Source of the DNA: Escherichia phage vB_EcoM_JNE01
Direction: 5' to 3' (one strand)
Sequence record: OR670491
DNA length: 64,000 nt
The translations under genes were made by a program, and so were the position numbers. This document shows positions 28,527 to 42,585 of this stretch, piece by piece. Each line of letters starts with the position of its first letter. The stretch's first letter is position 1. The notes below the pieces were generated by a model. The model was not told where the DNA came from. It was given only the letters and a program-made list of their open reading frames with translations, and did no database searches.

Positions 28527-28595
28527 AAAATAGTTTGACAATAGTTTTAAGTACTGGCATAATACATACATCAACTACTGAATAGGAATTAAAAA

Positions 28596-29814: not shown

Positions 29815-29865
29815 TCAAAACATCGTTAGCGGTCGATTTAGGCCGCGTATATTGGGGATTATACC

Positions 29866-30138
29866 ATGAACGTTAATCAAGTACTGAATGAGATCGAAAG
29901 CATCATTAAACCAATGAAACGCATTGATGCTATGTTAACACCGGAAGAATGCCGCCTTTATGAGCGTTACAGCGTCGAACAAGTCCAGGCAATGGCTATG
30001 GCTACCCCAGCCGTTAAACCGCCTGAGAATGCGTTACAGGACGTTACAGGGGATTATATCATCAATCCAGTACTAGGGAAGATGGCTGCAATCACCGAAG
30101 ATCAACAAGATTACTTAAGTCAGTACTTAAAAGGTTAA
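29866..30138 (+). CDS. hypothetical small protein
   Basis: 90-aa ORF. Confidence 0.55.
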   Translation: MNVNQVLNEIESIIKPMKRIDAMLTPEECRLYERYSVEQVQAMAMATPAVKPPENALQDVTGDYIINPVLGKMAAITEDQQDYLSQYLKG

Positions 30139-30143
30139 TTAAT

Positions 30144-30353
30144 ATGCTTACTGTACAGGATAAGATCGACATCTTAAAGGTTAATATGTATGTGATTGAT
30201 GCAGTACCTGGTAAAGTATTTGCATACGATGACAGTACTGTAAGCGATTTCTACTATAGCCAGGACGTGGGGGATCTTTCTGTACAGTCGGTTATTGAAA
30301 ACGTAGTTAATGCAGCGTATGAGCATTTACTTTCAAATAGTACTTGCAATTAG
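30144..30353 (+). CDS. hypothetical small protein
   Basis: 69-aa ORF; 3' end runs into next promoter. Confidence 0.5.
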   Translation: MLTVQDKIDILKVNMYVIDAVPGKVFAYDDSTVSDFYYSQDVGDLSVQSVIENVVNAAYEHLLSNSTCN

Positions 30354-30422
30354 TTTTTAAACGCGTATAATGTTTTACATGAAGGGGAGAAATGATTCTC
30401 CCCACTAATTAAGGAATATGAA

Positions 30423-30569
30423 ATGAAAGCATCAAAAAAGAGTAATACTAAGAAAGCACGTTCAACCTTAGATGGGGTATTCCCTTTACGTTTCGTTGAT
30501 GAAGTGGTGTCCTACCCGCCGGGCCTTACTCCTGAGATGGTAGAAAGTTTGCGTAAATCTAAAAAATAG
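30423..30569 (+). CDS. hypothetical small basic protein (48 aa, not in ORF track)
   Basis: hand-translated; promoter, hairpin and SD upstream. Confidence 0.45.
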   Translation: MKASKKSNTKKARSTLDGVFPLRFVDEVVSYPPGLTPEMVESLRKSKK

Positions 30570-30650
30570 TACTTGCAATTAGTTTTTAGTACTGTATAAT
30601 AGTTTACATGAAGGGGAGAAATGATTCTCCCCAATAACAGGAGAATCAAA

Positions 30651-30803
30651 ATGAAACAATACAACGCTCGGTTTGATGTTACTATCGGTAACGGCAAAGG
30701 TCAATTCTCTTTCAGTACTCGCAAAAGTTATACAGAAAACTTCCTGCGTAATTGTGCACTGACCGCCGCTCAAATTAAACATTACTTTCAGGCTAAAAAA
30801 TGA
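30651..30803 (+). CDS. hypothetical small protein
   Basis: start moved to MKQYNARF downstream of promoter hairpin; SD AGGAGAA. Confidence 0.5.
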   Translation: MKQYNARFDVTIGNGKGQFSFSTRKSYTENFLRNCALTAAQIKHYFQAKK

Positions 30804-30889
30804 AAACATTAGCTTACTATAGTTCGGCCCTGGTCGGTGCATTGATCGCGGCGTTGTTAGTAACCTATCTATTCTTTATGGTGATTTAA
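30800..30889 (+). CDS. candidate 29-aa single-TM peptide
   Basis: ATGA overlap with previous gene; hydrophobic MKTLAYYSSALVGALIAALLVTYLFFMVI. Confidence 0.3.
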   Translation: MKTLAYYSSALVGALIAALLVTYLFFMVI

Positions 30890-31033
30890 ATGAATCCAAC
30901 AGGTTTAAACTATAAAAGTTGTTCGGCGTTTACGAAAGCAAATAAAGCGAATGCACGTAAAGCGAAAGTACAAGAATACATCAAGCAAGGCATGACGCGA
31001 AAGGCGGCGATTCTAAAAGCTAAAAATAAATGA
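30890..31033 (+). CDS. candidate 47-aa basic protein
   Basis: TAA-ATG abutting start; hand-translated. Confidence 0.3.
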   Translation: MNPTGLNYKSCSAFTKANKANARKAKVQEYIKQGMTRKAAILKAKNK

Positions 31034-31113
31034 AAAAAGTGGTTGACTCCGGTCAGCCATTTTGCTATTATATATTCATTGAGAGATAGCTCACTAGCCC
31101 ACAGGGTGCATAA
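31033..31113 (+). promoter_or_regulatory. terminator/promoter hairpin plus conserved element AGCCCACAGGGTGCATAAGTGTATCTAT
   Basis: TTGACT inside inverted repeat, TATTAT -10, then conserved element. Confidence 0.45.
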
Positions 31114-31254
31114 GTGTATCTATTATATGAGTATTGAGTACTGAAAACTATTTTAAAAGTATTTGTAGAAAGTACTTGCAAACTATCTCAATAAGCGTAT
31201 AATGTTTTACATCGAAAGGGGAAACGGTTTCCCCTGATAATAAGGAAACAAATC

Positions 31255-31596
31255 ATGACTATCTCAATTGCTCAATCTAACTTTGAAAACGAAATCATCG
31301 CCCAGGCACTGCGTTTAAATGATGGTCGGGCCGAAATTAATTACGGTTTCAATTCAGGCGGTTGTGAAAAATATCAGTACTTTGTAACGGCTGATGGCGG
31401 TGTCCTGGGTATCAATACAGTTATTGTAAACATCCAAAAAATTAATTTCAATGATCCAGACGATAGCCAGTTTTACATCACTGGCGTAGACGTGAACTAT
31501 GAGGATGACTCACTAACTGATGATCACACTGGTGAGAAGTTAGAGAGTGCATACGGTGAAGATGATTATCAGTCAGTACCGGAAGATTTTGAATAA
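31255..31596 (+). CDS. hypothetical acidic protein
   Basis: 113-aa ORF; second promoter, hairpin and SD upstream. Confidence 0.6.
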   Translation: MTISIAQSNFENEIIAQALRLNDGRAEINYGFNSGGCEKYQYFVTADGGVLGINTVIVNIQKINFNDPDDSQFYITGVDVNYEDDSLTDDHTGEKLESAYGEDDYQSVPEDFE

Positions 31597-31693
31597 TATT
31601 AAAAAAATAGTTTGACAATAGATTATAGTACTGTATAATAGTTTACATCAAGGGGAGAAAAACTTCTCCCCACTAACAGAGAGAGAAAACAAA

Positions 31694-31906
31694 ATGGCTA
31701 ATATCTGCACTGTACTGAAAAATGCAAAACAAGTTTTATTTTCTGATCACGATCATTTAAACAAGGATATTACTGGCGTTCGGAATATCAAAGATGTAAA
31801 AAGTGTTATGGGTATCTATTGCAATATGAAACGTGTTGGAACGTTCGGCGACAAAGTACTATACCAGGCAGGGGATTACAATTTTACACTGACTATCATT
31901 AACTAA
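31694..31906 (+). CDS. hypothetical small protein
   Basis: 70-aa ORF with promoter, hairpin and SD. Confidence 0.6.
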   Translation: MANICTVLKNAKQVLFSDHDHLNKDITGVRNIKDVKSVMGIYCNMKRVGTFGDKVLYQAGDYNFTLTIIN

Positions 31907-31998
31907 AAATATATTACCAGTACTATTAAATCTATTGACAACGTTTGATAGTACTGACATAATAACTTTTATCAACTACACTACTAAGGAATTAAAAA

Positions 31999-32178
31999 AT
32001 GGCTATCATCGCAAAAACTGAAATCGTTGGTCTGGATTCTATCATCATGACGTTTGAAGATCAAAAAGGTATGTATGTAGTTTCATATGGTGATTATGTT
32101 CGGGAGTATGAAACGGTAGACGAAGCCTTTGAAAGTTATATTCGCCAGGTGAATAAAGCATACGACGACTACCGCTAA
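31999..32178 (+). CDS. hypothetical small protein (59 aa, not in ORF track)
   Basis: hand-translated MAIIAKTEIVG...; promoter and SD AAGGAA. Confidence 0.45.
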   Translation: MAIIAKTEIVGLDSIIMTFEDQKGMYVVSYGDYVREYETVDEAFESYIRQVNKAYDDYR

Positions 32179-32268
32179 AATATATTACCAGTGCTATTGA
32201 CAAAGTTTGATAGTACTGTATAATAAGTTTTATAAACAGTAGTTAACTTAACCTAAGAGAGAAATAAA

Positions 32269-32412
32269 ATGATCGCACTGGATTCATTCATCGACGCAGT
32301 ACTGGCAAAAACTGGCGAGGATCTGACCGCAGAACAATACGCGATGATCGAGCAATGTCAGCAAAACGGTAAATCGGTGAAAGATACTGTTAAGATTATC
32401 CGCAAGATGTAA
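32269..32412 (+). CDS. hypothetical small protein (47 aa, not in ORF track)
   Basis: hand-translated; promoter TTGACA...TATAAT and SD upstream; terminator downstream. Confidence 0.45.
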   Translation: MIALDSFIDAVLAKTGEDLTAEQYAMIEQCQQNGKSVKDTVKIIRKM

Positions 32413-32418
32413 GATTAT

Positions 32419-32447
32419 AGCCCACTGGTTAACGCTGGTGGGCTTTA
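32419..32447 (+). terminator. terminator hairpin containing a Chi octamer
   Basis: AGCCCAC-loop-GTGGGCT; loop/stem contains GCTGGTGG. Confidence 0.5.
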
Positions 32448-32517
32448 ATCCTTTACCCTATACAATGCCAGTACTCAACCGTTTATCTCGTTAGAATGCG
32501 TTACAGGACGTTTGACA

Positions 32518-32715
32518 ATGATTAGCATGAAATCAGTACAAAAACAAATAGAAACATTATCAAAAATTAAACGTAAACAGTACTCGTTAGAATATACAAT
32601 CAATGGTAACTATCATCTAATGAAAGAGAATAATTTTATCGTCATTGATGAATCATTGCAAGTTATTAGTATAGTACTGAAAGCATTAATCAATGACAGA
32701 AAAAAATTAAAATAA
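32518..32715 (+). CDS. hypothetical small protein
   Basis: ORF; weak SD; start uncertain. Confidence 0.35.
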   Translation: MISMKSVQKQIETLSKIKRKQYSLEYTINGNYHLMKENNFIVIDESLQVISIVLKALINDRKKLK

Positions 32716-32804
32716 TCTATTGACAATATCCTCCAGTACTGGCATAATACTTACATCAAGACGAGAACGTCGCTAACCCATAGGGTGCACAAATGTAACT
32801 ATAT

Positions 32805-32895
32805 AATATCGATCAATAAATGATCAAAAAAGTACTGGATCAATTTAGCATAAGGCGTATAATTCTGATCAATTCTTGATCAAAGGCAATATACG
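32805..32895 (+). promoter_or_regulatory. GATC-rich palindromic cluster (five GATC sites, TGATCAA repeats)
   Basis: ATCGATCAATAAATGATCAA...GGATCAAT...TGATCAATTCTTGATCAA, upstream of the TraR-like gene. Confidence 0.35.
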
Positions 32896-33044
32896 CAGTT
32901 GAATTTATATAGACAGTACAAAGGCGTTACTATCCGTGGTAATGCTGGTGGATATGTAGTATCATATGGTTTGAATAAGATAAACACTAGTAGTATTATT
33001 GTAGCATTACAGTACTATAGTATTTTTATAATGAGGTTAAAATA

Positions 33045-33302
33045 ATGGCAGTAGGATACGCGAAAGACGGGGCCGAACAAGACGAGATTCACGCAGTGAT
33101 TCAGGCCGCCGTTAACCACGCTAGAAAGCAAATTAACGCACAAAGAGAATCACTGGTACATTGCCTCGACTGCGGCGATAAAATCCCTGAGAATCGACGC
33201 CAGGCCGTTATAGGGTGCATGTATTGTATTACTTGCCAGGAGGATCATGATAGTACTTTTAAAAGAGATCCGCGTAATTGTTGGCATAGATCTATGAGAT
33301 AA
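33045..33302 (+). CDS. TraR/DksA-family C4 zinc-finger protein
   Basis: CLDCGDKIPENRRQAVIGCMYCITCQ matches the CxxCGxxIPExRR...CxxCQ signature. Confidence 0.7.
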   Translation: MAVGYAKDGAEQDEIHAVIQAAVNHARKQINAQRESLVHCLDCGDKIPENRRQAVIGCMYCITCQEDHDSTFKRDPRNCWHRSMR

Positions 33303-33365
33303 AAAGTATTGACAGTACTGAAAGATAGTGTATAATGTTTTATATCTTAACTGAGGATAGTAATC

Positions 33366-33722
33366 ATGGGAATACAACATATCACGCGTACTACTGACAA
33401 TGGCGAGATCACTGGTTATCAGGTACAGGGCAAAGTAGCACAATTGCAGTACTGGTTTGTTAAACGTGGAATCATTGCACCGGATCTTGATTATGACCGT
33501 GTAGCGTTTATTGATTCTCTTTATGTTGATCCTGATAGTCGGGGCAATGGTGAAGGTAACGAATTAATGAATGCCTTTATTGATGCCGCCGATGATTCAG
33601 ATTGTATCATCTTAGAATGCGATACGGGAGAAGATAACGCCTTTAATCTTAAAGAATGGTACGAAGGTTTCGGATTCGAGGTACTGATCGATAGTGAATA
33701 TCCTATCATGATTTTATCATAG
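33366..33722 (+). CDS. possible GNAT-like acetyltransferase domain protein
   Basis: VAFIDSLYV...RGNGEGNELMNAF resembles the R-x-x-G-x-G CoA-binding motif; weak. Confidence 0.4.
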   Translation: MGIQHITRTTDNGEITGYQVQGKVAQLQYWFVKRGIIAPDLDYDRVAFIDSLYVDPDSRGNGEGNELMNAFIDAADDSDCIILECDTGEDNAFNLKEWYEGFGFEVLIDSEYPIMILS

Positions 33723-33800
33723 TACTTGCATTTAGTTTTCAGTACTGTTATAGTACTTGCATCAAGGGGAAACATCTTCCCCTACTAAGAGGAAATAAAA

Positions 33801-33989
33801 ATGGAAAACTTATCAAGTATTTTAGTACAAGATGATTTCGGTAATCCTGGAAGTGCTATCATTGTTCGGGGCAATAAAGCAACGTTTGTTATTGCTGGTG
33901 GACCCGTACAGCGTAGCATTAAAAATAATGCTGTTACCATTAATAATGTACGCTATCGCTTAGATAAAGAATTAATTCATAAACTGTAA
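33801..33989 (+). CDS. hypothetical small protein
   Basis: 62-aa ORF with promoter, hairpin and SD. Confidence 0.55.
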   Translation: MENLSSILVQDDFGNPGSAIIVRGNKATFVIAGGPVQRSIKNNAVTINNVRYRLDKELIHKL

Positions 33990-34016
33990 TATTAATTTAA
34001 TAGAGGATAACAATAA

Positions 34017-34340
34017 ATGTACATTCATACTACTATCACAAAGGAAGTCCGTTGCCAGTTCGAAAGTATTCCGGGCGTATGTTTCATCACTGGTACGTTT
34101 TCCCCTGGTGATCGTGATAATCCAGTACTGTTACAATTACGCCATCCATCATGGGATAAAGCATTTGATCTACCGTTGAATGAATTCGCAACTACTGCTG
34201 AAAAGTACATTAAAAATATTCGCGAGAATGATCGACTATTCATTAATGCTTTTAGTGATGCCGCGTTAAGTGAGATCCATGCTGTATTGGTTGCAATCAT
34301 GGAATCAATGGAGAAAACTATATTCAAACAAGGTGAATAA
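34017..34340 (+). CDS. hypothetical protein
   Basis: 107-aa ORF, SD GAGGA. Confidence 0.55.
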   Translation: MYIHTTITKEVRCQFESIPGVCFITGTFSPGDRDNPVLLQLRHPSWDKAFDLPLNEFATTAEKYIKNIRENDRLFINAFSDAALSEIHAVLVAIMESMEKTIFKQGE

Positions 34341-34423
34341 AAACTATTGACAATGCAATCCAGTACTGTATAATAGTTTACATGAAGGAGAGAAATGATT
34401 CTCCCCACTAAGAGGAAAGAAAA

Positions 34424-34636
34424 ATGCAAGGTCAACTAATCGTTCGTAAATGGTCTGATACTAACGAAAAACCGTGGGATGTACAATACATCGCCCCAAA
34501 TGGTGAATCCAGATATCAACCAGGTGTAACGCATAGTACTGAGCAATTCGCCGCCGCTCATCGCGAACGTCTGTTACAATCAATGCAGCAAGGTTCCGGT
34601 GAAAAATTCATTCAGGATCATTGGCTGAAAGATTAA
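34424..34636 (+). CDS. hypothetical small protein
   Basis: 70-aa ORF with promoter, hairpin and SD. Confidence 0.6.
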   Translation: MQGQLIVRKWSDTNEKPWDVQYIAPNGESRYQPGVTHSTEQFAAAHRERLLQSMQQGSGEKFIQDHWLKD

Positions 34637-34722
34637 AAAGTACTTGCACAGTACTGAATAAAGTGTATAATGTTTTATATCGGAAGGGGAATAGTTCCCC
34701 TCCGAACAAAGAGGAAAGTATA

Positions 34723-34896
34723 ATGGTCCAGGTAGAATTAACAGTACTGAAAGATCTGTTTTATCGGATTGGTACTACTGGCGAATATCCGAAGGGTGAT
34801 AATGCAAAACTTTACGTATCACTCGACTTATGGCAACGCGAACAATTAGCAACGGCCTGGCGTAAAGGCAAAGCAGATAGCGAGGTGAAAGCATGA
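34723..34896 (+). CDS. hypothetical small protein
   Basis: start moved to MVQVELTVLK downstream of promoter hairpin; SD AGAGGAAA. Confidence 0.5.
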   Translation: MVQVELTVLKDLFYRIGTTGEYPKGDNAKLYVSLDLWQREQLATAWRKGKADSEVKA

Positions 34897-35042
34897 AAGA
34901 ATTCTTATTTGAAGTAGTGTTTCAAGGTGTCGGTAATAACCAACTGATTCGATCAAGTGGTTATAATGTTAACCAGGCATGGAATAACATTAAACAAATG
35001 TACCCGAACGCTATCACATATCGCAACCCGAAAGAAGTTTAA
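34893..35042 (+). CDS. hypothetical small protein (49 aa, not in ORF track)
   Basis: ATGA overlap; hand-translated. Confidence 0.4.
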   Translation: MKEFLFEVVFQGVGNNQLIRSSGYNVNQAWNNIKQMYPNAITYRNPKEV

Positions 35043-35060
35043 AAATAATTGAAAAAGGGA

Positions 35061-35136
35061 TTGACTCCGGTCAGTCCCTTTGTTATTATATACGCATAGA
35101 AACAAATTAGCCCACCGGGTGCATAAATGTATCTAT
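35061..35136 (+). promoter_or_regulatory. terminator/promoter hairpin GGGATTGACTCCGGTCAGTCCC plus conserved element AGCCCACCGGGTGCATAAATGTATCTAT
   Basis: near-identical copies at 38336 and 41086. Confidence 0.45.
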
Positions 35137-35213
35137 TGTTTGCTGGTGGCTAGTACTGAAAACTATTTTTAAAAAGTACTTGCATTGTACTTAGAATCAA
35201 GTATAATGTTTTA

Positions 35214-35295
35214 CATCAGGACGGGGAACGAAATAAGTAACCCCGTTAAGTAGTCCAGGAGTAAGACATACGAAAAACTCCCCTGATAAAATAGT
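35214..35295 (+). ncRNA. candidate structured leader / small RNA (about 80 nt)
   Basis: second copy of the 24813-24895 element; differences preserve hairpin pairing. Confidence 0.3.
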
Positions 35296-35356
35296 TTGAC
35301 AATAGAAAGTAAACGAGTATAATACTTACATCAACCACTGATAAGGAAACATAAAA

Positions 35357-35632
35357 ATGCGGATTCTACTGACAGCTAACGAAATCGAACAAGTACTGAC
35401 TACTAATCTGGAACAATGGAAACGTGAAGCAGATATCCAGGCGGTTCAATGCCTTAACGATAAGTTAACGCCAGATGACTTAAGCACGATTGTTGATCCA
35501 CAATTTTATGAAGATATTCACGACACGTCTTTAAGCGTCGAGGATGTACTTGATAAGCACTACATTGATACTGATTTACATGTTTACGGTCGTAAAAACT
35601 TTATCACTATTCACGACATTTACAATACTTAA
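35357..35632 (+). CDS. hypothetical protein
   Basis: 91-aa ORF with third promoter and SD. Confidence 0.6.
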   Translation: MRILLTANEIEQVLTTNLEQWKREADIQAVQCLNDKLTPDDLSTIVDPQFYEDIHDTSLSVEDVLDKHYIDTDLHVYGRKNFITIHDIYNT

Positions 35633-35718
35633 GTATTGACAAAGTATCTTAGTACTGTATAATAGTTTACATCAAGGGGGGGAATGGTTCCCCTCCTAAC
35701 TAAAAGAGAGAAATAAAA

Positions 35719-35901
35719 ATGGCTAAGTGCACTATCTGTAATAAAGAAATAGTATTAGTTCCAAGTGCCCGTGAACGTGCCGCTCGGTTCGGTGGCAAAG
35801 CGTCAGACTATACAAAAATGTTTACTACCCATACAGCTTGCCAGGTAGCAAAACGTTCACAAGAAAGCGTAGAATTAATGCGTAAACTTTCCAAAAAATA
35901 A
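35719..35901 (+). CDS. hypothetical small protein
   Basis: 60-aa ORF with promoter, hairpin and SD. Confidence 0.55.
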   Translation: MAKCTICNKEIVLVPSARERAARFGGKASDYTKMFTTHTACQVAKRSQESVELMRKLSKK

Positions 35902-35989
35902 GTATTGACAAAGTATCTTAGTACTGTATAATAGTTTACATCAAGGGGGGGGGAATGGTTCCCCTCCTAACAAAGAGAGAGAAATAAAA

Positions 35990-36313
35990 ATGGCTATGAT
36001 CCTTACCCAGAAAGTAGAACTGAAAATTGTAACCTCCTTTGACATTAAAGTTAATCGGTGGACTGATAGCCACGGCAATACTTACCACTCCTGCTACGTG
36101 TCCGCATTGATTGGTGATCGCTGGGAAGACCTGGGACACGAAACCTTTACATACGGTTACGGCACACAAGGCGAGTACACGGGTTTAGAAATCATTAAGG
36201 AAACTGTAATAGGTTTCAACCCGAAAGAGAAAGTACTACACAGAATTGAGAAAGAGATCAACAAAGAAATTACAGTTCGCTACTACGATGTAAAACGTAA
36301 GAAAGACATGTAA
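35990..36313 (+). CDS. hypothetical protein (paralog of 29141..29464)
   Basis: shared RWTD.HGNTYHSCYVS and C-terminal KRKKDM. Confidence 0.6.
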   Translation: MAMILTQKVELKIVTSFDIKVNRWTDSHGNTYHSCYVSALIGDRWEDLGHETFTYGYGTQGEYTGLEIIKETVIGFNPKEKVLHRIEKEINKEITVRYYDVKRKKDM

Positions 36314-36325
36314 TAGAATCCATTT

Positions 36326-36364
36326 AAAGTACTATTTGACATTGCCCAGATAGTACTTTATAAT
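36326..36364 (+). promoter_or_regulatory. dyad AAAGTACTAT-N-ATAGTACTTT enclosing TTGACA, abutting TATAAT (operator-like)
   Basis: TTGACA 36337-36342, TATAAT 36359-36364; dyad arms on both sides of -35. Confidence 0.45.
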
Positions 36365-36412
36365 AGACTCTAACTTGTAGTACTAATTAACTTAACTAAT
36401 AGGATGTACACC

Positions 36413-36808
36413 ATGATTACTAAATTCTTCGCTACCCGTGAACAAGCTCGCATCGTTGCCCGTGAGGAAGGTGAAACATTTAAAGACATGGGTAAAGATT
36501 CTCCTACTGGTAAACGCTGGGCGGTACAGTTCAAAGAGATCTCTGATATTGTGAATTCACCTGAGCCTGTACTTACAGCAGCAGAACTAAAGCAAGCTCA
36601 AGAACTGGCTGAAGTACTGAACGCTCAAGATGACTTCTTGAAAGGTTCTGATATTGAAGTTACAGTTAACGCAAATGCATGGACTCACGCGGATCACCTG
36701 GCAAACCTTAAGCGTCCAAGTGAACTGATTCGTAACCAGAAAGAGATCCGTCATGACCGTAAAGGAAACCGTGTTACCGTATACAGTAAACGCCGCCAGG
36801 TTATCTAA
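36413..36808 (+). CDS. hypothetical protein (paralog of 23944..24210 with insertion)
   Basis: FATREQARIVAREEGETFKDMG...HDRKGNRVTVYSKRR. Confidence 0.6.
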   Translation: MITKFFATREQARIVAREEGETFKDMGKDSPTGKRWAVQFKEISDIVNSPEPVLTAAELKQAQELAEVLNAQDDFLKGSDIEVTVNANAWTHADHLANLKRPSELIRNQKEIRHDRKGNRVTVYSKRRQVI

Positions 36809-36831
36809 TACCTTGCAGTACTAACCAACAC

Positions 36832-36859
36832 GGCGGGAAGACAGTTCCCGCCTTTTTTA
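36832..36859 (+). terminator. rho-independent terminator
   Basis: GGCGGGAA-GACAG-TTCCCGCC plus TTTTTT. Confidence 0.65.
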
Positions 36860-36872
36860 TAGGACAAACAAA

Positions 36873-37127
36873 ATGATTAAGGTTCAACTATATAAAGATA
36901 ACATCTTACGGGTACACTATAAAGCACCTCAGAGAATCATCACAAAGGCCGTACAGCTTGCTAATGAGTTTATTAATGGTAACCTATTACCTAGGAAGTT
37001 AAGCAACGGGAAACTGCGTGTAATCGACGTGGACACTAACAACAGGATAGTAATCGAGAACACAGGAAAGATAAACCTTTATGAGCATCAACAATACAAT
37101 AAGAAAATAAAACTAATATCACGTTGA
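36873..37127 (+). CDS. hypothetical small protein
   Basis: 84-aa ORF. Confidence 0.55.
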   Translation: MIKVQLYKDNILRVHYKAPQRIITKAVQLANEFINGNLLPRKLSNGKLRVIDVDTNNRIVIENTGKINLYEHQQYNKKIKLISR

Positions 37128-37180
37128 CAGTACTCAATTGTTTTAGTACTATGTACACATACCAACACGGGAGAAACAAA

Positions 37181-37399
37181 ATGAAATTATCTAAAATCGA
37201 AAAGAAAACTATTGATGAAGCAGTTAAGCACGGTTATACCTTTCGTAATGATTCACATTTTACCAATTTTCAACAAGGGTATCGTACTATTAAAAAACTA
37301 ATTGACAAAGGTTTATTAGTTGAAGTCAATAACGGTAACGGTATCGAGTATCAACCAACACAGGACGCATTTTATTTTAAGAAATATAATATTATCTAA
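37181..37399 (+). CDS. hypothetical small protein
   Basis: start moved to MKLSKIEKK; promoter TTGACA...TACTAT and SD GGGAGAAA. Confidence 0.55.
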   Translation: MKLSKIEKKTIDEAVKHGYTFRNDSHFTNFQQGYRTIKKLIDKGLLVEVNNGNGIEYQPTQDAFYFKKYNII

Positions 37400-37457
37400 T
37401 TGACAGTACTCAAATGTTTTAGTACTATATGTACATACCAACACGGGGGGAAACAAA

Positions 37458-37700
37458 ATGATTACTTTAGAAAAACGTATCAAAGAAACTACATCGCTGG
37501 TGGAACTGTTAACAGTACTCAAATGTAAAACAGCACCATTCAGCACGCCGGACTTTATTAATATGGTTGATGTTAATGGTCGCTATCGTATCACGGTCGA
37601 ACAAGGAGCGGCGAAAGTATTCAGTACTAAAAACACGAAGGAAGTGATCCACGCCGTTAATGTTAAAAAAGTAGTTGCCATTGATAGTAAAGTACTGTAA
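37458..37700 (+). CDS. hypothetical small protein
   Basis: 80-aa ORF; promoter nearly identical to that of 37181. Confidence 0.55.
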   Translation: MITLEKRIKETTSLVELLTVLKCKTAPFSTPDFINMVDVNGRYRITVEQGAAKVFSTKNTKEVIHAVNVKKVVAIDSKVL

Positions 37701-37731
37701 TATAGTTTCATTAACTCAAGGAGATCATGCA

Positions 37732-38316
37732 ATGCGTAATTATACAAAATTCATCCGTACACTGTCAGAAATGGAAACCAACAAAGAGATCCTTTCAGCT
37801 TGTCGGTTAGCTGACCTGGAGATCATCGGTGCTGGTTCTTCCCGTATAGTTTTCGCTTTAAATGATCGGTTAGTGATTAAGGTCGCGAATTGTGATGCGG
37901 GTGTAGAACAAAATGAAACTGAATGTAAGGTATGGAATTTTTTAGACTATGACCGCCCTCAGTTGAAACAGTACTTTGCAAAGGTGCATATGCATTTATG
38001 CGATCCTGATAATATGTTTATCGTTATGGATCGGTTGAGTACTGCAAGCAAAGGCAGTGTGAAGCACGTAAACGCGTGCAATGAATTAAAGTACAATATT
38101 AAACGTAATGCAATCGAACGCCAGCACCGCTTTGCTGATGCACTACAACACGTTGATGATACATTATCAACACTAACGATAAGAGATATCAGAAAACAGA
38201 ATATCGGCCAGGATCGTAATGGACTTATTAAAGTACTTGATTACGGTTTAACCAGCAATATCTGGAATCAGTACTATAAAAAGCGTGATGTGGCAGCAAG
38301 TAAGGTAACACGATAA
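37732..38316 (+). CDS. protein-kinase-like protein (candidate phage Ser/Thr kinase)
   Basis: start moved to MRNYTKF; Gly-loop IGAGSSRIVF, VIKV lysine, catalytic-loop-like IRDIRKQNIG, DFG-like LDYGLT. Confidence 0.55.
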   Translation: MRNYTKFIRTLSEMETNKEILSACRLADLEIIGAGSSRIVFALNDRLVIKVANCDAGVEQNETECKVWNFLDYDRPQLKQYFAKVHMHLCDPDNMFIVMDRLSTASKGSVKHVNACNELKYNIKRNAIERQHRFADALQHVDDTLSTLTIRDIRKQNIGQDRNGLIKVLDYGLTSNIWNQYYKKRDVAASKVTR

Positions 38317-38335
38317 AAAAGATTAAAAAAAGGGA

Positions 38336-38416
38336 TTGACTCCGGTCAGTCCCTTTGCTATTATATATCCATTGAGAGATAACTCACTGACCCATAGGGT
38401 GCGGAAGTGTATCTAT
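38336..38416 (+). promoter_or_regulatory. terminator/promoter hairpin plus conserved element GACCCATAGGGTGCGGAAGTGTATCTAT
   Basis: copy of the module at 35061 and 41086. Confidence 0.45.
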
Positions 38417-38538
38417 TATATAAGTATTCAGTACTGAAAACTATTTTTAAAAAAGTACTTGCATTGTACTTAGAATCAAGTATAATGTTTTATATCGAGA
38501 GGGGGAAATGGTTCTCCCTGGCAATAAGGAATAAAATC

Positions 38539-38760
38539 ATGACTACAATGACTTGCATTTACGCTTCCAATCGTCTGAATGATGCGGCCTTTAATGTTGA
38601 TTCAGAATATCAATGTTATCGGGATGAAAATAAAAAAGTTTTTGTAGTTGATAATAATGGTTTCCATATTGAATTACAATCCGGCTTCACTGGTGTTGAT
38701 GGTAAATCAGTATGGGGCGTACAGGATGATAAAGGCACATATCATTTTAAACGTAATTAA
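38539..38760 (+). CDS. hypothetical small protein
   Basis: start moved to MTTMTCIYAS downstream of promoter hairpin. Confidence 0.55.
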   Translation: MTTMTCIYASNRLNDAAFNVDSEYQCYRDENKKVFVVDNNGFHIELQSGFTGVDGKSVWGVQDDKGTYHFKRN

Positions 38761-38843
38761 GTATTGACAAAGTATATCAGTACTGTATAATAGTTTACAT
38801 CAAGGGGAGAATAGTTCTCCCCGATACTAAAAGGAATAAAATC

Positions 38844-39248
38844 ATGACTACTACTAATCTTGCTCGGAATATCGCCAACGATAAAAATCATGCTGCAATG
38901 GTTGTTGGTTACATTGAAGCTATGCAATTCAGTACTGTACACAATGAGAACGGCGATTACCTGGAAGATTATGAATTATCAGAGCAAGCCCATCAAGCGG
39001 CAGTGATTGCATGTTCTCGCTTCATTGAGAAACACGGTAATGATCTGGAAGTAGTTCGCGGTATGTTTATTGATTACGGTTATGAGCAAGCTGGTCATGA
39101 TCTGTTCCTTACCCGCGAAGGTCACGGAACTGGTTTTTGGGATCGTGGTTTAGGTCACTATGGCGATGTATTCACGAAGTACTGCGAAGAAATCAACGTT
39201 TGCGATCCCTATGTAGGCGATGATAATCTAATCTATATGGGCGAATAA
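38844..39248 (+). CDS. hypothetical protein
   Basis: 134-aa ORF with promoter, hairpin and SD. Confidence 0.65.
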   Translation: MTTTNLARNIANDKNHAAMVVGYIEAMQFSTVHNENGDYLEDYELSEQAHQAAVIACSRFIEKHGNDLEVVRGMFIDYGYEQAGHDLFLTREGHGTGFWDRGLGHYGDVFTKYCEEINVCDPYVGDDNLIYMGE

Positions 39249-39335
39249 AAGTATTTGACAAAGTATATCAGTACTGTATAATAGTTTACATCAAGGGGAG
39301 AATAGTTCTCCCCGATACTAAAAGGAAACAAAATT

Positions 39336-39608
39336 ATGTCCAGCTACTCCGCTACTATGATCATTAAAGATATGAACGGTAATCCTACTTCTGCTGGTGG
39401 ATCATTTGGAAACATTAATTTAGATGGTCGGTTATCCATGCAATCAGCAATCGATGCAGCGAAAGAAGTTTTTAAGAATGAATGTACTGTTAGTAAGCTG
39501 GATTATATGGGATTTGCTATCGAAAAAACTAATCGTTTTGTGGACTACAAAAAACCACTGATGATTGATACTAACCTGAAAGCAAACGAAGTGGAGTACT
39601 TATTATGA
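39336..39608 (+). CDS. hypothetical small protein
   Basis: 90-aa ORF; promoter identical to that of 38844. Confidence 0.6.
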   Translation: MSSYSATMIIKDMNGNPTSAGGSFGNINLDGRLSMQSAIDAAKEVFKNECTVSKLDYMGFAIEKTNRFVDYKKPLMIDTNLKANEVEYLL

Positions 39609-39796
39609 CAGTTGAAGAAGTTAAAAAAGTACTGGCAGTACTACGCTATCATAATCATTGTAAGGTGAAGAATGATCCTGATTATCTTGATTCATCCCTG
39701 GAAGAGGATACACTACAAGCAATAAGCCATATGCAAACATTAGCAAAGCGTATGACCGAAAAGAATAGACCGGACTATATCGGAAATAAAATTTAA
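39605..39796 (+). CDS. hypothetical small protein
   Basis: ATGA overlap with previous gene. Confidence 0.55.
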   Translation: MTVEEVKKVLAVLRYHNHCKVKNDPDYLDSSLEEDTLQAISHMQTLAKRMTEKNRPDYIGNKI

Positions 39797-39882
39797 AAAG
39801 TACTTGCATTGTAGTTAGATTAACGTATAATGTTTTACATAGAGCGGGGGAATAGTTCTCCCGCCAGTCCAGGAGATACACC

Positions 39883-40146
39883 ATGAACACTATCGAAATC
39901 ACTATCAATGCACACGTATACGACAACGTAATCATGCAAACTACTATGACCGCTAATGATACCAGTACTTTGCGGAATACTGTTATTAGTGCTGTATGTG
40001 CCGCTATCGGTGATGTCGCCCTGGAAAATGCAAAACACGTAAACGATGGTTTCACTATGTGCAAACGTGATAACGCAAAACATATCATCGTGGAAGGTTA
40101 CGGCGGTGTAGAATTTAATGTTTATATGAAAAAAGTACTTGCATAA
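39883..40146 (+). CDS. hypothetical small protein
   Basis: 87-aa ORF with promoter, hairpin and SD. Confidence 0.6.
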   Translation: MNTIEITINAHVYDNVIMQTTMTANDTSTLRNTVISAVCAAIGDVALENAKHVNDGFTMCKRDNAKHIIVEGYGGVEFNVYMKKVLA

Positions 40147-40213
40147 TAACTAAAACAAAGTATAATGTTTTGCATAGGGGGAGATATCCTCCCCCACTAA
40201 AAGGAGTAATAAA

Positions 40214-40438
40214 ATGGCTAACTTTGATGAACTGATGCGGGAAGTAGCTAACCTGGCAGAAGAGAAGAAATCATTCGATTCTATCTATAACACCGCTCAC
40301 CGTGATTCAGTACTGGCATGTAACCAGGATCAAAAAGATGAACTAATCGCCACCTATCATGAAGCATGGAAGTACTACCGACAATGGGAGAAAGAAGAAA
40401 GTGAGTCTACCATTGACGGCCTCAATAATCTAATCTAA
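40214..40438 (+). CDS. hypothetical small acidic protein
   Basis: 74-aa ORF with promoter, hairpin and SD. Confidence 0.6.
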   Translation: MANFDELMREVANLAEEKKSFDSIYNTAHRDSVLACNQDQKDELIATYHEAWKYYRQWEKEESESTIDGLNNLI

Positions 40439-40514
40439 AAGTTTTATTTCAGTACTATTGACATAGCTTGATAGTACTGATGTAATAACTTTACTAACTA
40501 CAAGGGGAAACATA

Positions 40515-40772
40515 ATGGATCAGTTCACACAATATCGGGTAAATCATCAAGCTATGGCCTACGTAGAAGACCATAAAACGTTACCAGTACTGCAACCAGT
40601 TAAAGGCCATATCTATCGTGCAATGTCGTGGTGTACGGCCCAGGATGGCTATAAAACCGTAGCCGTTGGTATGTATTGCGGTAATGGTGAATGGTTTGAT
40701 CCAAATAATCCGGTAGCCATTGACAGTACTGAAAAAATGAAATGGGCCGACTACATCGAAGATATTTCATAA
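40515..40772 (+). CDS. hypothetical small protein
   Basis: 85-aa ORF with promoter. Confidence 0.6.
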   Translation: MDQFTQYRVNHQAMAYVEDHKTLPVLQPVKGHIYRAMSWCTAQDGYKTVAVGMYCGNGEWFDPNNPVAIDSTEKMKWADYIEDIS

Positions 40773-40861
40773 AAACTATTTGACAGTACTAACCAGTAAT
40801 GTATAATGTTTTACATAGAGCGGGGAATAGTTCTCCCGCCAATAGTTTGGAGTAAAACATT

Positions 40862-41062
40862 ATGTCTATCGCTATCGCCCTGGTTGAAGTACTGAAAGAA
40901 GCTAAAGCCAACCAGATCGACGTAAAGATCCAGGAACTACAAAACGGCTTAATCGGCTGTACTTGTACCGCTGGTGGAGCGGCAGACTATCGAGAACACG
41001 AATCACTCGAATCACTGGTTCGGTATCTTACCATGATCGTTGATGATTGGAGAATCATCTAA
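40862..41062 (+). CDS. hypothetical small protein
   Basis: 66-aa ORF with promoter and hairpin; contains in-frame Chi octamer. Confidence 0.55.
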   Translation: MSIAIALVEVLKEAKANQIDVKIQELQNGLIGCTCTAGGAADYREHESLESLVRYLTMIVDDWRII

Positions 41063-41085
41063 CAAAAAAAGAATAAAAAAAGGGA

Positions 41086-41159
41086 TTGACTCCGGTCAGT
41101 CCCTTTGCTATTATATACGCATAGACAAAAACTAGCCCACAGGGTGCATAGGTGTATCC
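41086..41159 (+). promoter_or_regulatory. terminator/promoter hairpin plus conserved element AGCCCACAGGGTGCATAGGTGTATCC
   Basis: copy of the module at 35061 and 38336. Confidence 0.45.
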
Positions 41160-41308
41160 AAAATATATAGTTAATAACGGTGAGTAACTATCTGCTGGTG
41201 GAACTAAAACTATTAATAAAAAAGTATTGACAAAGTATATCAGTACTGCAATAATGTATCTCGTAGGGCGGCAATGGTGCGACGGCCCACAAAGTTAGGA
41301 GATTCAAA

Positions 41309-41641
41309 ATGACTACTTCAATCGCTATCGTTAAAGCTTTCATCCGTACTAATGTTTCCTCTGTATTCATCGACGGCCTCGACCGTAACGTAGAATACTC
41401 AATCATTATCGCACAAACGGCAAACGGTTCTCGGTACATCCTGAATGATAGTGAAGCAAATCACTACTACTTCACTAAAGCCACTGGCTTTAAACGCATC
41501 GATGCTGATGTAGTATACGCTAAGATGAATAAGCTGGTAGACAAGATTAACGCTAAAGGTACTATAGATTTACAGTACTGGACCGAAACCGATCCAGAAT
41601 ATGGATCTCACCGCTACCTGAATCCAGGTATCAAAATGTAA
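41309..41641 (+). CDS. hypothetical protein
   Basis: 110-aa ORF with promoter and SD. Confidence 0.6.
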   Translation: MTTSIAIVKAFIRTNVSSVFIDGLDRNVEYSIIIAQTANGSRYILNDSEANHYYFTKATGFKRIDADVVYAKMNKLVDKINAKGTIDLQYWTETDPEYGSHRYLNPGIKM

Positions 41642-41730
41642 AAAGTACTTGCATAGTACTTAGATTCATGTATAATGTTTTACATAGAGAGGGGGAAATG
41701 GTTCTCCCTCCTAAATTAAGGAGTATTGTC

Positions 41731-42132
41731 ATGACTTTTTCTATCAATTCTTATGCTGACGTTTTAGTACTGGCTCGGACTTTTGGTAAAGATGCACTGG
41801 AGTACGCTGTAAGTAATGGCACTATCCAACCGGAACAGTGCCGCATCATTGGAAACTGCAAACGTTGGGCGGTTTCCAATACTATTGCACTGGAAAACTT
41901 CCACGATGGCAACAATGAATATTCTGTTGATGTAGTATTCGAAGCCGTTGATCTCGGCGGTATCTATAATACTAACCTGAATGATGTGCGTATCGTTCGC
42001 ACTGGGTTCGGTGCTTATGATGTATCTATTCGTGAAGCTATGAACACCGGATACATTAGCAAGGACTTACTTGCTCACATCATGCAGCTGTGTACGGAAC
42101 GTAACGAAGCACGCACTATCTTAGGACTGTAA
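41731..42132 (+). CDS. hypothetical protein
   Basis: start moved to MTFSINSYADV downstream of promoter hairpin; SD AAGGAG. Confidence 0.6.
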   Translation: MTFSINSYADVLVLARTFGKDALEYAVSNGTIQPEQCRIIGNCKRWAVSNTIALENFHDGNNEYSVDVVFEAVDLGGIYNTNLNDVRIVRTGFGAYDVSIREAMNTGYISKDLLAHIMQLCTERNEARTILGL

Positions 42133-42200
42133 GCGTTACACATCACCAAACATCATAGGCCGCCTTGTAGCGGCCTTAACTATATCAGGAGTACATACAC

Positions 42201-42410
42201 ATGATCTATACAGTATACAGCGTTCTAGGCACTATTGCAGGCGTACATGATAACGTCGATAGTGCTATGCGTACAGTACTGCAACAGGTTCCACTAAAGC
42301 CTAAGACCATTAAGCAGATGACAGCACGACTAACCAGGGCGACGGCTGGCGTGGAAGTATGGCAGGACTATGGGGATACACAGATAATCGTAAGCGTAAC
42401 GAAGGATTAA
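42201..42410 (+). CDS. hypothetical small protein
   Basis: 69-aa ORF, SD AGGAG. Confidence 0.55.
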   Translation: MIYTVYSVLGTIAGVHDNVDSAMRTVLQQVPLKPKTIKQMTARLTRATAGVEVWQDYGDTQIIVSVTKD

Positions 42411-42585
42411 TGCGTAAAAGGATTTAGTACTGATGCATTTTAAATTTTAGTCATTTTTTAAAAACTACGCAAAAAAACTAAACCAATACCTTAGCGTAAT
42501 AGTTTAGGGATTGGACTATGTTTTTATGCGTGGGGGGGCTAGTATGGGGTAACCTTAGCTCGATCGTGAAGTAGCCCATAGGGTA

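What the first reader, a model, noticed from the sequence alone, without database searches (positions are those of the whole stretch)
37732..38316. Phage-encoded protein-kinase-like gene
The 194-aa product has, in the correct order, a glycine-rich loop (IGAGSSRIVF), a VIKV lysine, a catalytic-loop-like IRDIRKQNIG (D-x-K-x-x-N) and a DFG-like LDYGLT. That is the minimal signature of a protein-kinase-like fold. Phage kinases such as T7 gp0.7 are used to reprogram the host, so this is a plausible host-takeover effector.
Basis: partly seen in the sequence, partly recalled or inferred. Interest (0 to 1): 0.6.

Follow-up and report, generated by a model that had tools for sequence, protein, structure and literature searches.

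The report
Truncated mini-kinase of a jumbo phage
This gene of a giant E. coli phage encodes a stripped-down protein-kinase-like enzyme that keeps its catalytic residues but lacks the usual substrate-binding half; it lies in the promoter-rich repeated end of the genome, so it is probably an early host-modifying effector, but its activity and target have not been tested.

Summary

The window is an Asteriusvirus jumbo coliphage. The gene lies inside the ~21-kb direct terminal repeat, among consensus sigma70 promoters, and is followed by a terminator, which suggests early expression.

It is not new as an annotation. Several GenBank records call it a putative protein kinase, and the Sharanji paper calls it "another protein kinase, function unknown". 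It is distinct from the T7-kinase homolog these phages also carry. The family (phrog_4301, at least 2,000 clusters, no Pfam model) is uncharacterised. Relatives are fused to ART-PolyVal, GNAT and tape-measure domains.

The most likely role is a constitutive early effector kinase acting on host proteins. This is inferred, not shown.

The parts
37732..38316 (+). CDS of the 194-aa truncated protein-kinase-like enzyme (ortholog of Sharanji gp063 WNN14351.1, ph0011 WAE76904.1, fEgEco12 g044; phrog_4301)
   Evidence: pN/pS 0.05-0.13. AF2 pLDDT 93.
37718..37723 (+). Shine-Dalgarno AAGGAG, 8 nt before the ATG
   Evidence: Read directly from the sequence.
37828..37851 (+). Codons for the Gly-rich loop and beta2, G33-A-G35-S-S-R38-I-V40. 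G35 and R38 are invariant.
37879..37881 (+). Codon for K50, the beta3 ATP-binding lysine (VIKV)
   Evidence: 100% K in 242 domains. Aligns to the VAIK Lys of MKK7.
37900..37923 (+). Codons for G57-x-x-Q60-N61-x-x-E64: the family-specific start of alphaC and the invariant alphaC glutamate
   Evidence: Helix 55-73 in the model.
38185..38202 (+). Codons for the catalytic loop D152-I-R154-K155-Q-N157
   Evidence: D152 is 98.8% conserved. N157 is kept in the RaK2-like clade only. D+2 is R/K in 65% of domains. Aligns to HRDxKxxN of MKK4.
38239..38247 (+). Codons for D170-Y171-G172, the DFG-equivalent metal-binding motif. Only 22 residues follow it.
   Evidence: D170 100% and G172 99.6% conserved. 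Median tail after this motif is 12 residues across the family.
37675..37703 (+). Degenerate copy of the region's promoter cassette (TTGCCA-17-TAATAT) immediately upstream of the gene; a possible own promoter
   Evidence: 9/12 match. family D5, copy at 37668-37707. Function not shown.
37400..37428 (+). Upstream sigma70-like promoter (TTGACA-17-TACTAT) of the same transcription unit. A twin copy lies at 37124-37152.
   Evidence: (D16).
36832..36852 (+). Terminator-like hairpin with a T-run, marking the upstream end of the four-gene unit that ends with the kinase gene
38329..38356 (+). Terminator-like hairpin 13 nt after the stop codon. It is part of a repeated terminator/promoter element.
   Evidence: D8 and D10.
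21340..42433 (+). Stretch collinear with the ~21-kb direct terminal repeat of related phages. The kinase gene lies ~16.4 kb from the physical left end and is transcribed inward.
   Evidence: blastn to vB_Ec-M-J positions 1-21396. DTR annotations. fEgEco12 DTR confirmed by restriction digests (PMC13070987).

Best explanation
The gene encodes a catalytically competent, minimal protein-kinase-like phosphotransferase.

The protein has a two-helix N-terminal extension, a complete N-lobe (Gly-loop, K50-E64 pair), alphaD and alphaE, the catalytic loop (D152...N157) and the metal-binding DYG. It ends one short helix later. It therefore has no activation segment, APE motif or alphaF-alphaI substrate-docking subdomain. 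With nothing to regulate it, it is probably constitutively active.

The gene sits in the ~21-kb direct terminal repeat. That region is present at both genome ends and is packed with consensus host sigma70 promoters. The gene is therefore most likely transcribed by host RNA polymerase soon after DNA entry. The product then most likely phosphorylates host Ser/Thr (possibly Tyr) residues to help takeover or blunt defences. This is functionally analogous to T7 gp0.7, but the protein belongs to a separate family.

Shown here: the gene is real, the fold, conservation of the catalytic residues, the truncation, the DTR location and promoter context, and its distinctness from T7K.

Inferred: catalytic activity, early timing, protein (rather than other) substrates, and the host-takeover or anti-defence role.
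For: Fold:
- AF2 model with pLDDT 93 and pTM 0.90.
- Foldseek against the PDB returns PKL-type folds: kinases, APH and the related SAICAR synthase.
- The profile search against the PDB returns only eukaryotic-like protein kinases (ePKs); MKK4/MKK7 score E=2e-5 over Gly-loop to DFG.
- The Muenster GenBank record carries an annotator note of HHpred 99.9% to 6J5T_M.

Active site:
- K50, E64 and D170 are 100% conserved, D152 98.8% and G172 99.6% in 242 domains.
- D+2 is Arg/Lys in 65% of domains, as in Ser/Thr kinases.
- pN/pS is 0.05-0.13.

Truncation:
- The median tail after DYG is 12 residues. CBB/GAP32-type members end 3-4 residues after it.

Early context:
- Nine 12/12 TTGACA-N16/17-TATAAT promoters on the + strand within 10 kb, and a repeated promoter-leader cassette.
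- A terminator directly after the gene.
- The gene is inside the DTR in vB_Ec-M-J, Muenster and fENko-Kae01, mapped onto the window. The fEgEco12 DTR was confirmed experimentally.

Effector role:
- T7K-type phage kinases match the model at TMq 0.55-0.58, against 0.48 or less for cellular kinases.
- Relatives are fused to ART-PolyVal and GNAT.
- One copy is embedded in a tape-measure-type protein and keeps its catalytic residues.
- Precedents: T7K as a broad anti-defence kinase (PMC13645617) and C-lobe-less kinases in polyvalent proteins (PMC5512222).
Against: - No biochemical or expression data exist for any member.
- The Pfam Pkinase score is 17.3 bits against a cut-off of 31.7.
- APH(2'') small-molecule kinases and archaeal RNA kinases score about as well as protein kinases.
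- The whole protein-substrate docking platform of ePKs is missing.
- The catalytic-loop Asn is not conserved outside the RaK2-like clade (17% overall).
- The gene's own promoter is a degraded 9/12 copy.
- The same genome already has a T7K-like kinase, so the role may differ.
- The S/T/Y depletion of neighbouring early proteins is small and confounded.
Confidence: 0.55

Rival explanations
1. It is an active phosphotransferase with a non-protein substrate. The missing C-lobe means it does not dock proteins. Candidates are RNA or tRNA (as for the 173-216-aa archaeal RNA kinase ArkI/Ark1), a nucleotide or immune signalling molecule, an antibiotic-like small molecule (as for APH), or a sugar or lipid.
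For: - A 2,130-aa relative (P0133) combines the domain with 2H phosphoesterase and CCA-adding/poly(A) polymerase domains.
- A CCA-adding enzyme gene lies near the homolog in a 286-kb metagenomic phage contig.
- There is no P+1, APE or alphaF-alphaG platform.
Against: - Sequence profiles hit Ser/Thr protein kinases (MKK4/7, PAK, MST), not APH, choline kinase or ArkI, at the top.
- The D-[YF]-G motif with invariant Gly, and Arg/Lys at D+2, are ePK-like.
- Fusion partners ART-PolyVal and GNAT are typically protein-modifying.
- T7K, the closest characterised phage analogue in size and structure, is a protein kinase.
- P0133 may be a read-through fusion of neighbouring genes.
Confidence: 0.17
2. 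It is an active protein kinase whose main targets are phage proteins, or whose role is phage-phage competition (regulating its own early-to-middle switch, or superinfection exclusion), rather than host takeover or anti-defence.
For: - The genome already encodes a T7K-like kinase that could cover the anti-host role.
- The 80-aa gene immediately upstream is conserved next to the kinase in three lineages.
- Weak generic similarity to the PD-T4-6 defence kinase models.
Against: - The neighbourhood conservation looks like general synteny, not a dedicated two-gene module.
- Copies inside tape-measure and polyvalent-type proteins point to action on the host at entry.
- The PADLOC hits (E about 7e-4 to 4e-3) are ordinary kinase-core similarity.
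Confidence: 0.15
3. It is a pseudokinase or repurposed PKL domain. It either binds ATP or a host protein without phosphotransfer, or catalyses other chemistry such as AMPylation or glutamylation, as in SelO or SidJ.
For: - Unusual family-specific invariants: R38 in the G-loop, Q60-N61 and G159.
- The catalytic-loop Asn is replaced by S, H or T in most of the family.
- The C-lobe is absent.
Against: The Lys-Glu pair, the catalytic Asp and the metal-binding Asp are retained in 239 of 242 domains. That is the pattern of active kinases, not pseudokinases. The window protein also keeps N157.
Confidence: 0.08
4. The motifs are a chance resemblance in a small hypothetical ORF.
For: The single-sequence Pfam hit is below threshold.
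Against: Profile E-values, invariant catalytic columns, a high-confidence kinase-fold model and purifying selection all contradict this.
Confidence: 0.01

Closest known systems
Phage T7 gp0.7 protein kinase (T7K; phrog_2828) and its jumbophage homologs (phrog_15752, e.g. Sharanji gp144)
   Same: - Both are phage-encoded, small PKL domains that end shortly after the metal-binding Asp, with no activation segment.
- Both lie in a host-RNAP-transcribed early region near the genome end.
- T7K-type proteins in BFVD match the model at TMq 0.55-0.58, rmsd about 4 A.
- The weak hhalign alignment puts the Gly-loop, Lys, D...N and Asp in register.
   Different: - Separate family. The window protein hits only phrog_4301, not phrog_2828 or phrog_15752.
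- hhalign probability is only 11%.
- Canonical D-Y-G instead of T7K's D-P-V, no shutoff/DNA-binding domain, and its own invariants R38, Q60 and N61.
- The same phage genomes carry a true T7K homolog elsewhere.
Kinase-PolyVal (PF18762), the C-lobe-less S/T/Y kinase domains of phage polyvalent proteins (Iyer et al. 2017, PMC5512222)
   Same: [quoted passage not shown]
- Phage context.
- Relatives of the window protein are fused to ART-PolyVal, GNAT and tape-measure domains.
   Different: - Only 2 of 114 family members touch PF18762, at E about 0.03.
- The published diagnostic features were not evident: a Glu before strand 2, a Gln in the last N-lobe strand, and an insert between the catalytic His and Asp. 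No catalytic His is present here.
- Different host range: Enterobacteria jumbo phages, versus Verrucomicrobia/Chlamydia/Bacteroidetes.
Eukaryotic-like Ser/Thr protein kinases (Pfam Pkinase PF00069), e.g. MKK4/MKK7, PknB
   Same: - Gly-loop, VAIK Lys, alphaC Glu, D-x-x-x-x-N catalytic loop and D-[FY]-G are all in order.
- Profile E=2e-5 to MKK4.
   Different: - Below the Pfam gathering score: 17.3 against 31.7 bits.
- Matches only Pkinase profile positions 6-152 of 263.
- No HRD His/Arg, and no subdomains VIII-XI (activation segment, APE, alphaF-alphaI).
Minimal bacterial effector kinases: SteC (8jbi), and by recollection OspG/NleH and HopBF1
   Same: - Small, atypical kinase cores used as injected effectors.
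- SteC is the top PDB sequence hit of the broad family profile (E=4.8e-4). The match covers the N-terminal helix, Gly-loop and Lys.
   Different: - The SteC match covers the N-lobe only.
- None of these effectors appears in the top 50-60 structural hits.
- The resemblance to OspG/NleH and HopBF1 is from memory and was not tested.
Archaeal RNA kinases ArkI/Ark1 (7vnx, 8yv5), aminoglycoside phosphotransferases APH(2''), and YrbL (PF10707)
   Same: - A relative (P0049) matches the YrbL model over its G-loop-to-Lys region (NCBIfam E=2e-5). From my recollection of the E. coli YrbL sequence, it shares the G-x-G-x-x-R G-loop.
   Different: - No significant sequence-profile match for the window protein.
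- These enzymes retain larger C-terminal helical lobes, or act on non-protein substrates.
- Similarity does not exceed that to ordinary protein kinases.

Membership tests
Protein-kinase-like (PKL) fold superfamily | Bilobal fold: five-stranded N-lobe with alphaC, hinge, and catalytic plus metal-binding loops on a helical base | tested here: met
   [not shown]
Protein-kinase-like (PKL) fold superfamily | Conserved ATP-binding Lys, alphaC Glu, catalytic Asp and metal-binding Asp | tested here: met
   K50, E64 and D170 are 100% conserved and D152 98.8% in 242 domains. All four are present together in 239 of 242.
Protein-kinase-like (PKL) fold superfamily | Phosphotransfer activity | not testable with these tools
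   Needs an in vitro assay.
Canonical eukaryotic-like protein kinase domain (Pfam PF00069) | Score at or above the Pfam gathering threshold | tested here: not met
   17.3 bits against 31.7. Only 8 of 114 family members hit at E<0.1.
Canonical eukaryotic-like protein kinase domain (Pfam PF00069) | Activation segment, APE motif and alphaF-alphaI (subdomains VIII-XI) | tested here: not met
   The protein ends 22 residues after DYG, and the family median is 12. The Pkinase match stops at profile position 152 of 263.
T7 gp0.7 kinase family (phrog_2828 / phrog_15752) | Significant match to the T7K family profile | tested here: not met
   The window protein hits phrog_4301 only. Sharanji gp144 hits phrog_15752 at 1e-97 and phrog_2828 at 7e-16. 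hhalign of A1 against T7K gives probability 11%.
T7 gp0.7 kinase family (phrog_2828 / phrog_15752) | D-P-V (D-P-x) motif in place of DFG (PMC13645617) | tested here: not met
   The motif is D-Y-G, with Y or F in 224 of 242 domains and G in 241 of 242.
T7 gp0.7 kinase family (phrog_2828 / phrog_15752) | C-terminal shutoff/DNA-binding domain (Autographiviridae members) | tested here: not met
   The 194-aa protein has no extra domain.
Kinase-PolyVal (PF18762) | Match to the Pfam model | tested here: not met
   No hit for the window protein. Two of 114 relatives hit at E about 0.03.
Kinase-PolyVal (PF18762) | Loss of the C-terminal kinase subdomain with the active site intact | tested here: met
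   Description in PMC5512222.
Kinase-PolyVal (PF18762) | Insert between the catalytic-loop His and Asp, and a conserved Gln in the last N-lobe strand | tested here: inconclusive
   No catalytic-loop His is present (T-I-R-D), and Gln in strand 96-100 appears in only a few members. The published alignment was not available for a direct comparison.
phrog_4301 (uncharacterised phage family) | Significant full-length match to the PHROG profile | tested here: met
   E=1.1e-41, residues 2-188.
Early (host-RNAP-transcribed) gene class | Sigma70-type promoters upstream and location in first-entering DNA | tested here: met
   These are promoter consensus matches and DTR location only.
Early (host-RNAP-transcribed) gene class | Transcript detected early in infection | not testable with these tools
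   No transcriptome for this phage group was found.

The most novel reading that the evidence does not exclude
The family (at least 2,000 sequence clusters, nearly all unannotated) may not consist of protein kinases at all. It may be a phage-specific class of C-lobe-less phosphotransferases that act on a non-protein target at the very start of infection. Candidate targets are host or phage tRNA/RNA (as for the archaeal ArkI enzymes) or a nucleotide immune signal. That would explain why jumbo phages keep it alongside a separate T7K-like protein kinase.
Probability: 0.15. Interest if true: 0.75.

Novelty: new member of a known kind. Interest (0 to 1): 0.42.

Why it matters
T7's kinase was shown in 2026 to be a broad anti-defence weapon (PMC13645617). 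That paper noted that jumbophage kinases remain uncharacterised.

This gene defines a second, unrelated mini-kinase family in the same jumbo phages. It sits in the terminal repeat and keeps a fully conserved active site, but it has no regulatory segment and no substrate-docking lobe. The family has at least 2,000 clusters in metagenomes and no Pfam model, and PHROGs lists it as 'unknown function'.

If it is active, it would be one of the smallest known kinase cores, and a tractable model for how substrate choice works without a C-lobe. It is also a candidate host-takeover or anti-defence factor relevant to using Asteriusvirus phages in therapy.

If experiments show ordinary Ser/Thr phosphorylation, it is a routine addition to the list of phage kinases.

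Tried and rejected
1. The first AF2 run used a 14-sequence MSA and gave pLDDT 59.9 with an unreliable C-terminal half. I did not use it for fold searches. The 114-sequence MSA fixed this.
2. P0182's 286,785-bp contig looked like PA5oct, which has RNA-seq data. It is a freshwater metagenomic contig, so it gave no timing data.
3. I tried to identify which jumbophage gene is the 'T7K homologue' of the Nature paper from its Supplementary Table 8, but the file is not held. I resolved it indirectly through the Sharanji accessions and PHROG hits.
4. S/T/Y depletion of DTR-encoded proteins, as a signature of a promiscuous kinase: 17.3% against 19.4% and 22.9% in the flanks, p=0.027 and 0.008. The effect is small and confounded by GC content and by the repeat-protein array, so I give it no weight.
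5. NCBIfam gave nothing for the window protein. PADLOC gave only generic kinase-core similarity to PD-T4-6. Rfam found nothing in the DTR region.
6. I looked for a paralog or a T7K-like gene in the window and found none. The 224-aa ORF at 18316-18990 only coincidentally has the same length as gp144.
7. A conserved two-gene module with the upstream 80-aa ORF is present in three lineages, but it cannot be distinguished from general synteny.
8. Literature searches for functional or expression data on this family found only the one-line mention in the Sharanji paper.

Full report
**1. Observation**

The ORF is exactly where stated: ATG at 37732, stop at 38314-38316, 194 aa, with AAGGAG 8 nt upstream. 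The longer TTG-initiated reading (213 aa) is not used by any ortholog.

The four motifs sit at residues 32-41 (IGAGSSRIVF), 48-51 (VIKV), 150-159 (IRDIRKQNIG) and 169-174 (LDYGLT). One detail needs correcting. The catalytic loop is D152-I-R154-K155-Q-N157, so the Asp-to-Asn spacing is canonical but the D+2 residue is Arg, not Lys.

**2. Source of the window**

Megablast places the window in the Asteriusvirus jumbo coliphages (121Q, PBECO4, G17, phAPEC6 and Sharanji; 348-386 kb) at 90-97% identity. The gene is present in all of them at 90-99.5% protein identity. It is also present at 27-41% identity in RaK2/K64-1, Munch/SE_PL/fENko-Kae01, Erwinia, Xanthomonas, Yersinia fHe-Yen9-04 and Pectobacterium CBB jumbo phages.

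Most records call it hypothetical. A minority call it 'protein kinase domain-containing protein', 'putative protein kinase', 'PknA' or 'PRP4'. It is Sharanji gp063, WNN14351.1. The Sharanji paper describes it as 'another protein kinase ... function unknown', separate from a T7-kinase homolog, WNN14432.1. The kinase idea therefore already exists at annotation level.

**3. Is it really a kinase fold?**

Single-sequence evidence is weak. Pfam Pkinase scores 17.3 bits against a cut-off of 31.7. The best PDB hit by phmmer is E=0.004, although all 17 weak hits are protein kinases. PHROGs places it in phrog_4301, 'unknown function'.

Profile evidence is much stronger.
- A 16-sequence family profile hits 747 PDB sequences at E<1. 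The top 60 are all eukaryotic-like kinases, and the alignments run from the Gly-loop to the DFG (MKK4/MKK7, E=2e-5 to 4e-5).
- An exhaustive HMM search of 1.84 billion cluster representatives found 2,071 relatives at E<=1e-3 and 244 at E<=1e-10. A word-index search found more than 1,138. Almost none has a Pfam assignment.
- In 242 near-full-length domains, K50, E64, D170, R38 and Q60 are 100% conserved. D152 is 98.8% conserved, G172 99.6%, and G35, G57 and G159 at least 99%.
- The gene is under strong purifying selection, pN/pS 0.05-0.13.

A first AF2 model from 14 sequences was poor, pLDDT 59.9. With a 114-sequence alignment the model reached mean pLDDT 93.0 and pTM 0.90, and all five models scored above 90.
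- Foldseek agrees, with Lpg2603, APH(2''), MEK1, NEK7, IRAK4 and DYRK1A.

**4. Anatomy**

The model has these elements, in order:
- two N-terminal helices (4-12, 17-26)
- beta1, G-loop and beta2 (30-42)
- beta3 with K50
- alphaC (55-73) with Q60, N61 and E64
- beta5 and the hinge (96-103)
- two helices equivalent to alphaD and alphaE (109-120, 130-145)
- the catalytic loop (150-157)
- two short strands
- D170-Y-G172
- one last helix (175-182)

There is no activation segment, APE motif or alphaF-alphaI. This truncation is a family trait. The median tail after DYG is 12 residues, and CBB/GAP32-type members stop 3-4 residues after it.

The catalytic-loop Asn is retained in the RaK2-like clade, which includes the window protein. 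It is S, H or T in most of the wider family. The D+2 residue is Arg/Lys in 65% of domains.

**5. Genomic context**

The region is an array of small + strand genes. Many of them are preceded by a repeated cassette with a perfect TTGACA-N16/17-TATAAT promoter and a leader hairpin. There are nine 12/12 promoter matches within 10 kb and at least 15 cassette copies.

The kinase gene closes a four-gene unit. A terminator hairpin at 36832-36852 lies upstream of the unit. Promoters sit at 37124 and 37400, and a degraded cassette copy at 37675 lies just upstream of the gene. A terminator hairpin follows at 38329-38356.

In three relatives with determined termini, the ortholog lies inside the direct terminal repeat:

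| Phage | DTR | Ortholog position |
|---|---|---|
| vB_Ec-M-J | 1-21,525 | 16,690-17,274 |
| Muenster | 1-20,030 | 17,325-17,909 |
| fENko-Kae01 | 1-19,736 | 16,233-16,823 |

The 20,993-bp DTR of fEgEco12 was confirmed by restriction digestion (PMC13070987). That phage is 96% identical to the window here. The left end of vB_Ec-M-J maps to window position 21,340 and collinearity runs to 42,433.

The gene is therefore present at both genome ends, about 16 kb from the terminus, and is transcribed inward from host-type promoters. This is the classic signature of an early gene, but no transcriptome exists for this group. The fENko-Kae01 ortholog's record lacks the LC-MS/MS virion note that its neighbour carries, so there is no evidence the protein is packaged.

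**6. Relation to known phage kinases**

These phages carry two mini-kinases.

The first is Sharanji gp144 (224 aa). It is the T7K homolog: phrog_15752 at 1e-97, phrog_2828 at 7e-16, BLASTP to T7 gp0.7 at 4e-8, and an 'ITDP' motif. It maps about 8 kb left of the window, and no copy is in the window. It is most likely the 'jumbophage T7K homologue (Munch, G17)' of Bartolec et al. 2026. This is an inference, because the supplementary table was not available.

The second is the window protein, which belongs to a different family. It hits phrog_4301 only, carries D-Y-G rather than D-P-V, and gives an hhalign probability to T7K of only 11%. Even so, the Gly-loop, Lys, D...N and Asp align in register.

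In the viral structure library, the best matches outside its own family are many small uncharacterised phage proteins and T7K-type kinases (TMq 0.55-0.58). These are closer than any cellular kinase.

Iyer et al. 2017 described a C-lobe-less kinase clade in phage polyvalent proteins and proposed T7-like protein phosphorylation. The present family barely touches that Pfam model, with 2 of 114 members at E about 0.03. It does share the architecture and the company it keeps:
- Relatives are fused to ART-PolyVal and GNAT domains.
- Relatives occur as 2-4 tandem copies in one polypeptide.
- One copy sits inside a 3,248-aa tape-measure-type protein with its catalytic residues intact.

**7. Mechanism**

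The best-supported reading is a constitutively active, unregulated mini-kinase made early from the terminal repeat. It would phosphorylate host proteins to aid takeover or counter defence (confidence about 0.55).

The fold, the active-site conservation, the truncation and the context are shown. Activity, timing, substrate class and biological role are inferred.

The main rival is a non-protein substrate (about 0.17). APH and ArkI score as well structurally as protein kinases, the substrate-docking lobe is gone, and some relatives sit beside or are fused to RNA-end-processing domains. Against that, sequence profiles favour Ser/Thr kinases, the DFG Gly and the basic D+2 residue are ePK-like, and the fusion partners are protein modifiers.

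A phage-directed or exclusion role (about 0.15) and a pseudokinase or altered chemistry (about 0.08) are less likely. Chance resemblance is excluded.

**8. Verdict**

It is not a discovery as such, because the gene is already annotated and mentioned as a kinase of unknown function, and truncated phage kinases are a known kind.

This analysis adds four things:
- The gene belongs to a very large, uncatalogued family with an invariant active site.
- It is distinct from the T7K homolog in the same genomes.
- The C-lobe loss is universal in the family.
- The gene sits in the terminal repeat among consensus early promoters.

Interest is moderate. It is a good experimental target after the 2026 T7K work, but not surprising to a specialist.

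Noticed in passing
window 21340-42433: This stretch is collinear with the ~21-kb left direct terminal repeat of vB_Ec-M-J. The physical genome end maps to about 21,340. Right of about 42.5 kb the window no longer matches that phage's post-DTR sequence, so that part appears variable.
   Followed up: partly
window 30335-41713 (e.g. 35636-35713, 38764-38841, 39255-39332): At least 15 copies of a promoter cassette: a perfect TTGACA-N16-TATAAT promoter followed by a conserved leader hairpin (ACATCAAGGGGAGAA...TTCTCCCC), in front of small + strand ORFs. Nine promoters in 33-43 kb are 12/12 consensus matches.
   Followed up: partly
window 35041-35133, 38316-38451, 41066-41158, 31021-31158: A repeated 90-140-nt intergenic element. 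It combines a terminator hairpin (AAAGGGATTGACTCCGGTCAGTCCCTTT) that overlaps a TTGACT-17-TATTAT promoter, followed by a conserved CCCAcAGGGTGCAtAaGTGTATC box. It matches no Rfam family.
   Followed up: partly
window 5697-16965 (- strand): A head-to-tail array of ten paralogous ORFs of 358-447 aa. One Sharanji counterpart is annotated as an RCC1-repeat protein.
   Followed up: no
outside the window, about 8 kb left of position 1 (Sharanji gp144, L010:21186-21857, - strand): The same phages encode a second, unrelated mini-kinase of 224 aa. It is a true T7 gp0.7 homolog (phrog_15752, ITDP motif) and also ends shortly after its metal-binding Asp.
   Followed up: yes
metagenomic relatives P0041, P0048, P0039, P0045, P0049; Pectobacterium phage CBB L007:2374-3483: Some relatives carry 2-4 full-length mini-kinase domains in tandem in one predicted polypeptide, and CBB has two adjacent paralogous genes. 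Some of the tandem forms could be gene-calling read-through.
   Followed up: partly
metagenomic relative P0149 (3,248 aa), residues 850-1031: A catalytically intact copy of the mini-kinase domain is embedded in a protein that has a phage minor-tail/tape-measure domain (PF10145, E=6e-30). That protein type is ejected into the host at infection.
   Followed up: partly
window 37458-37700 (+): An 80-aa ORF immediately upstream of the kinase gene is conserved in the same position in Salmonella phage Munch and Erwinia phage Hallingskeid, where it is annotated 'virion structural protein'. It may be a partner or may reflect synteny only.
   Followed up: partly
family-wide (alignment A4; window residues 38, 57, 60, 61, 159): R38 (at the third-Gly position of the G-loop), G57, Q60, N61 and G159 are 99-100% invariant and have no counterpart in canonical kinases. 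The catalytic-loop Asn is S, H or T in most of the family.
   Followed up: no
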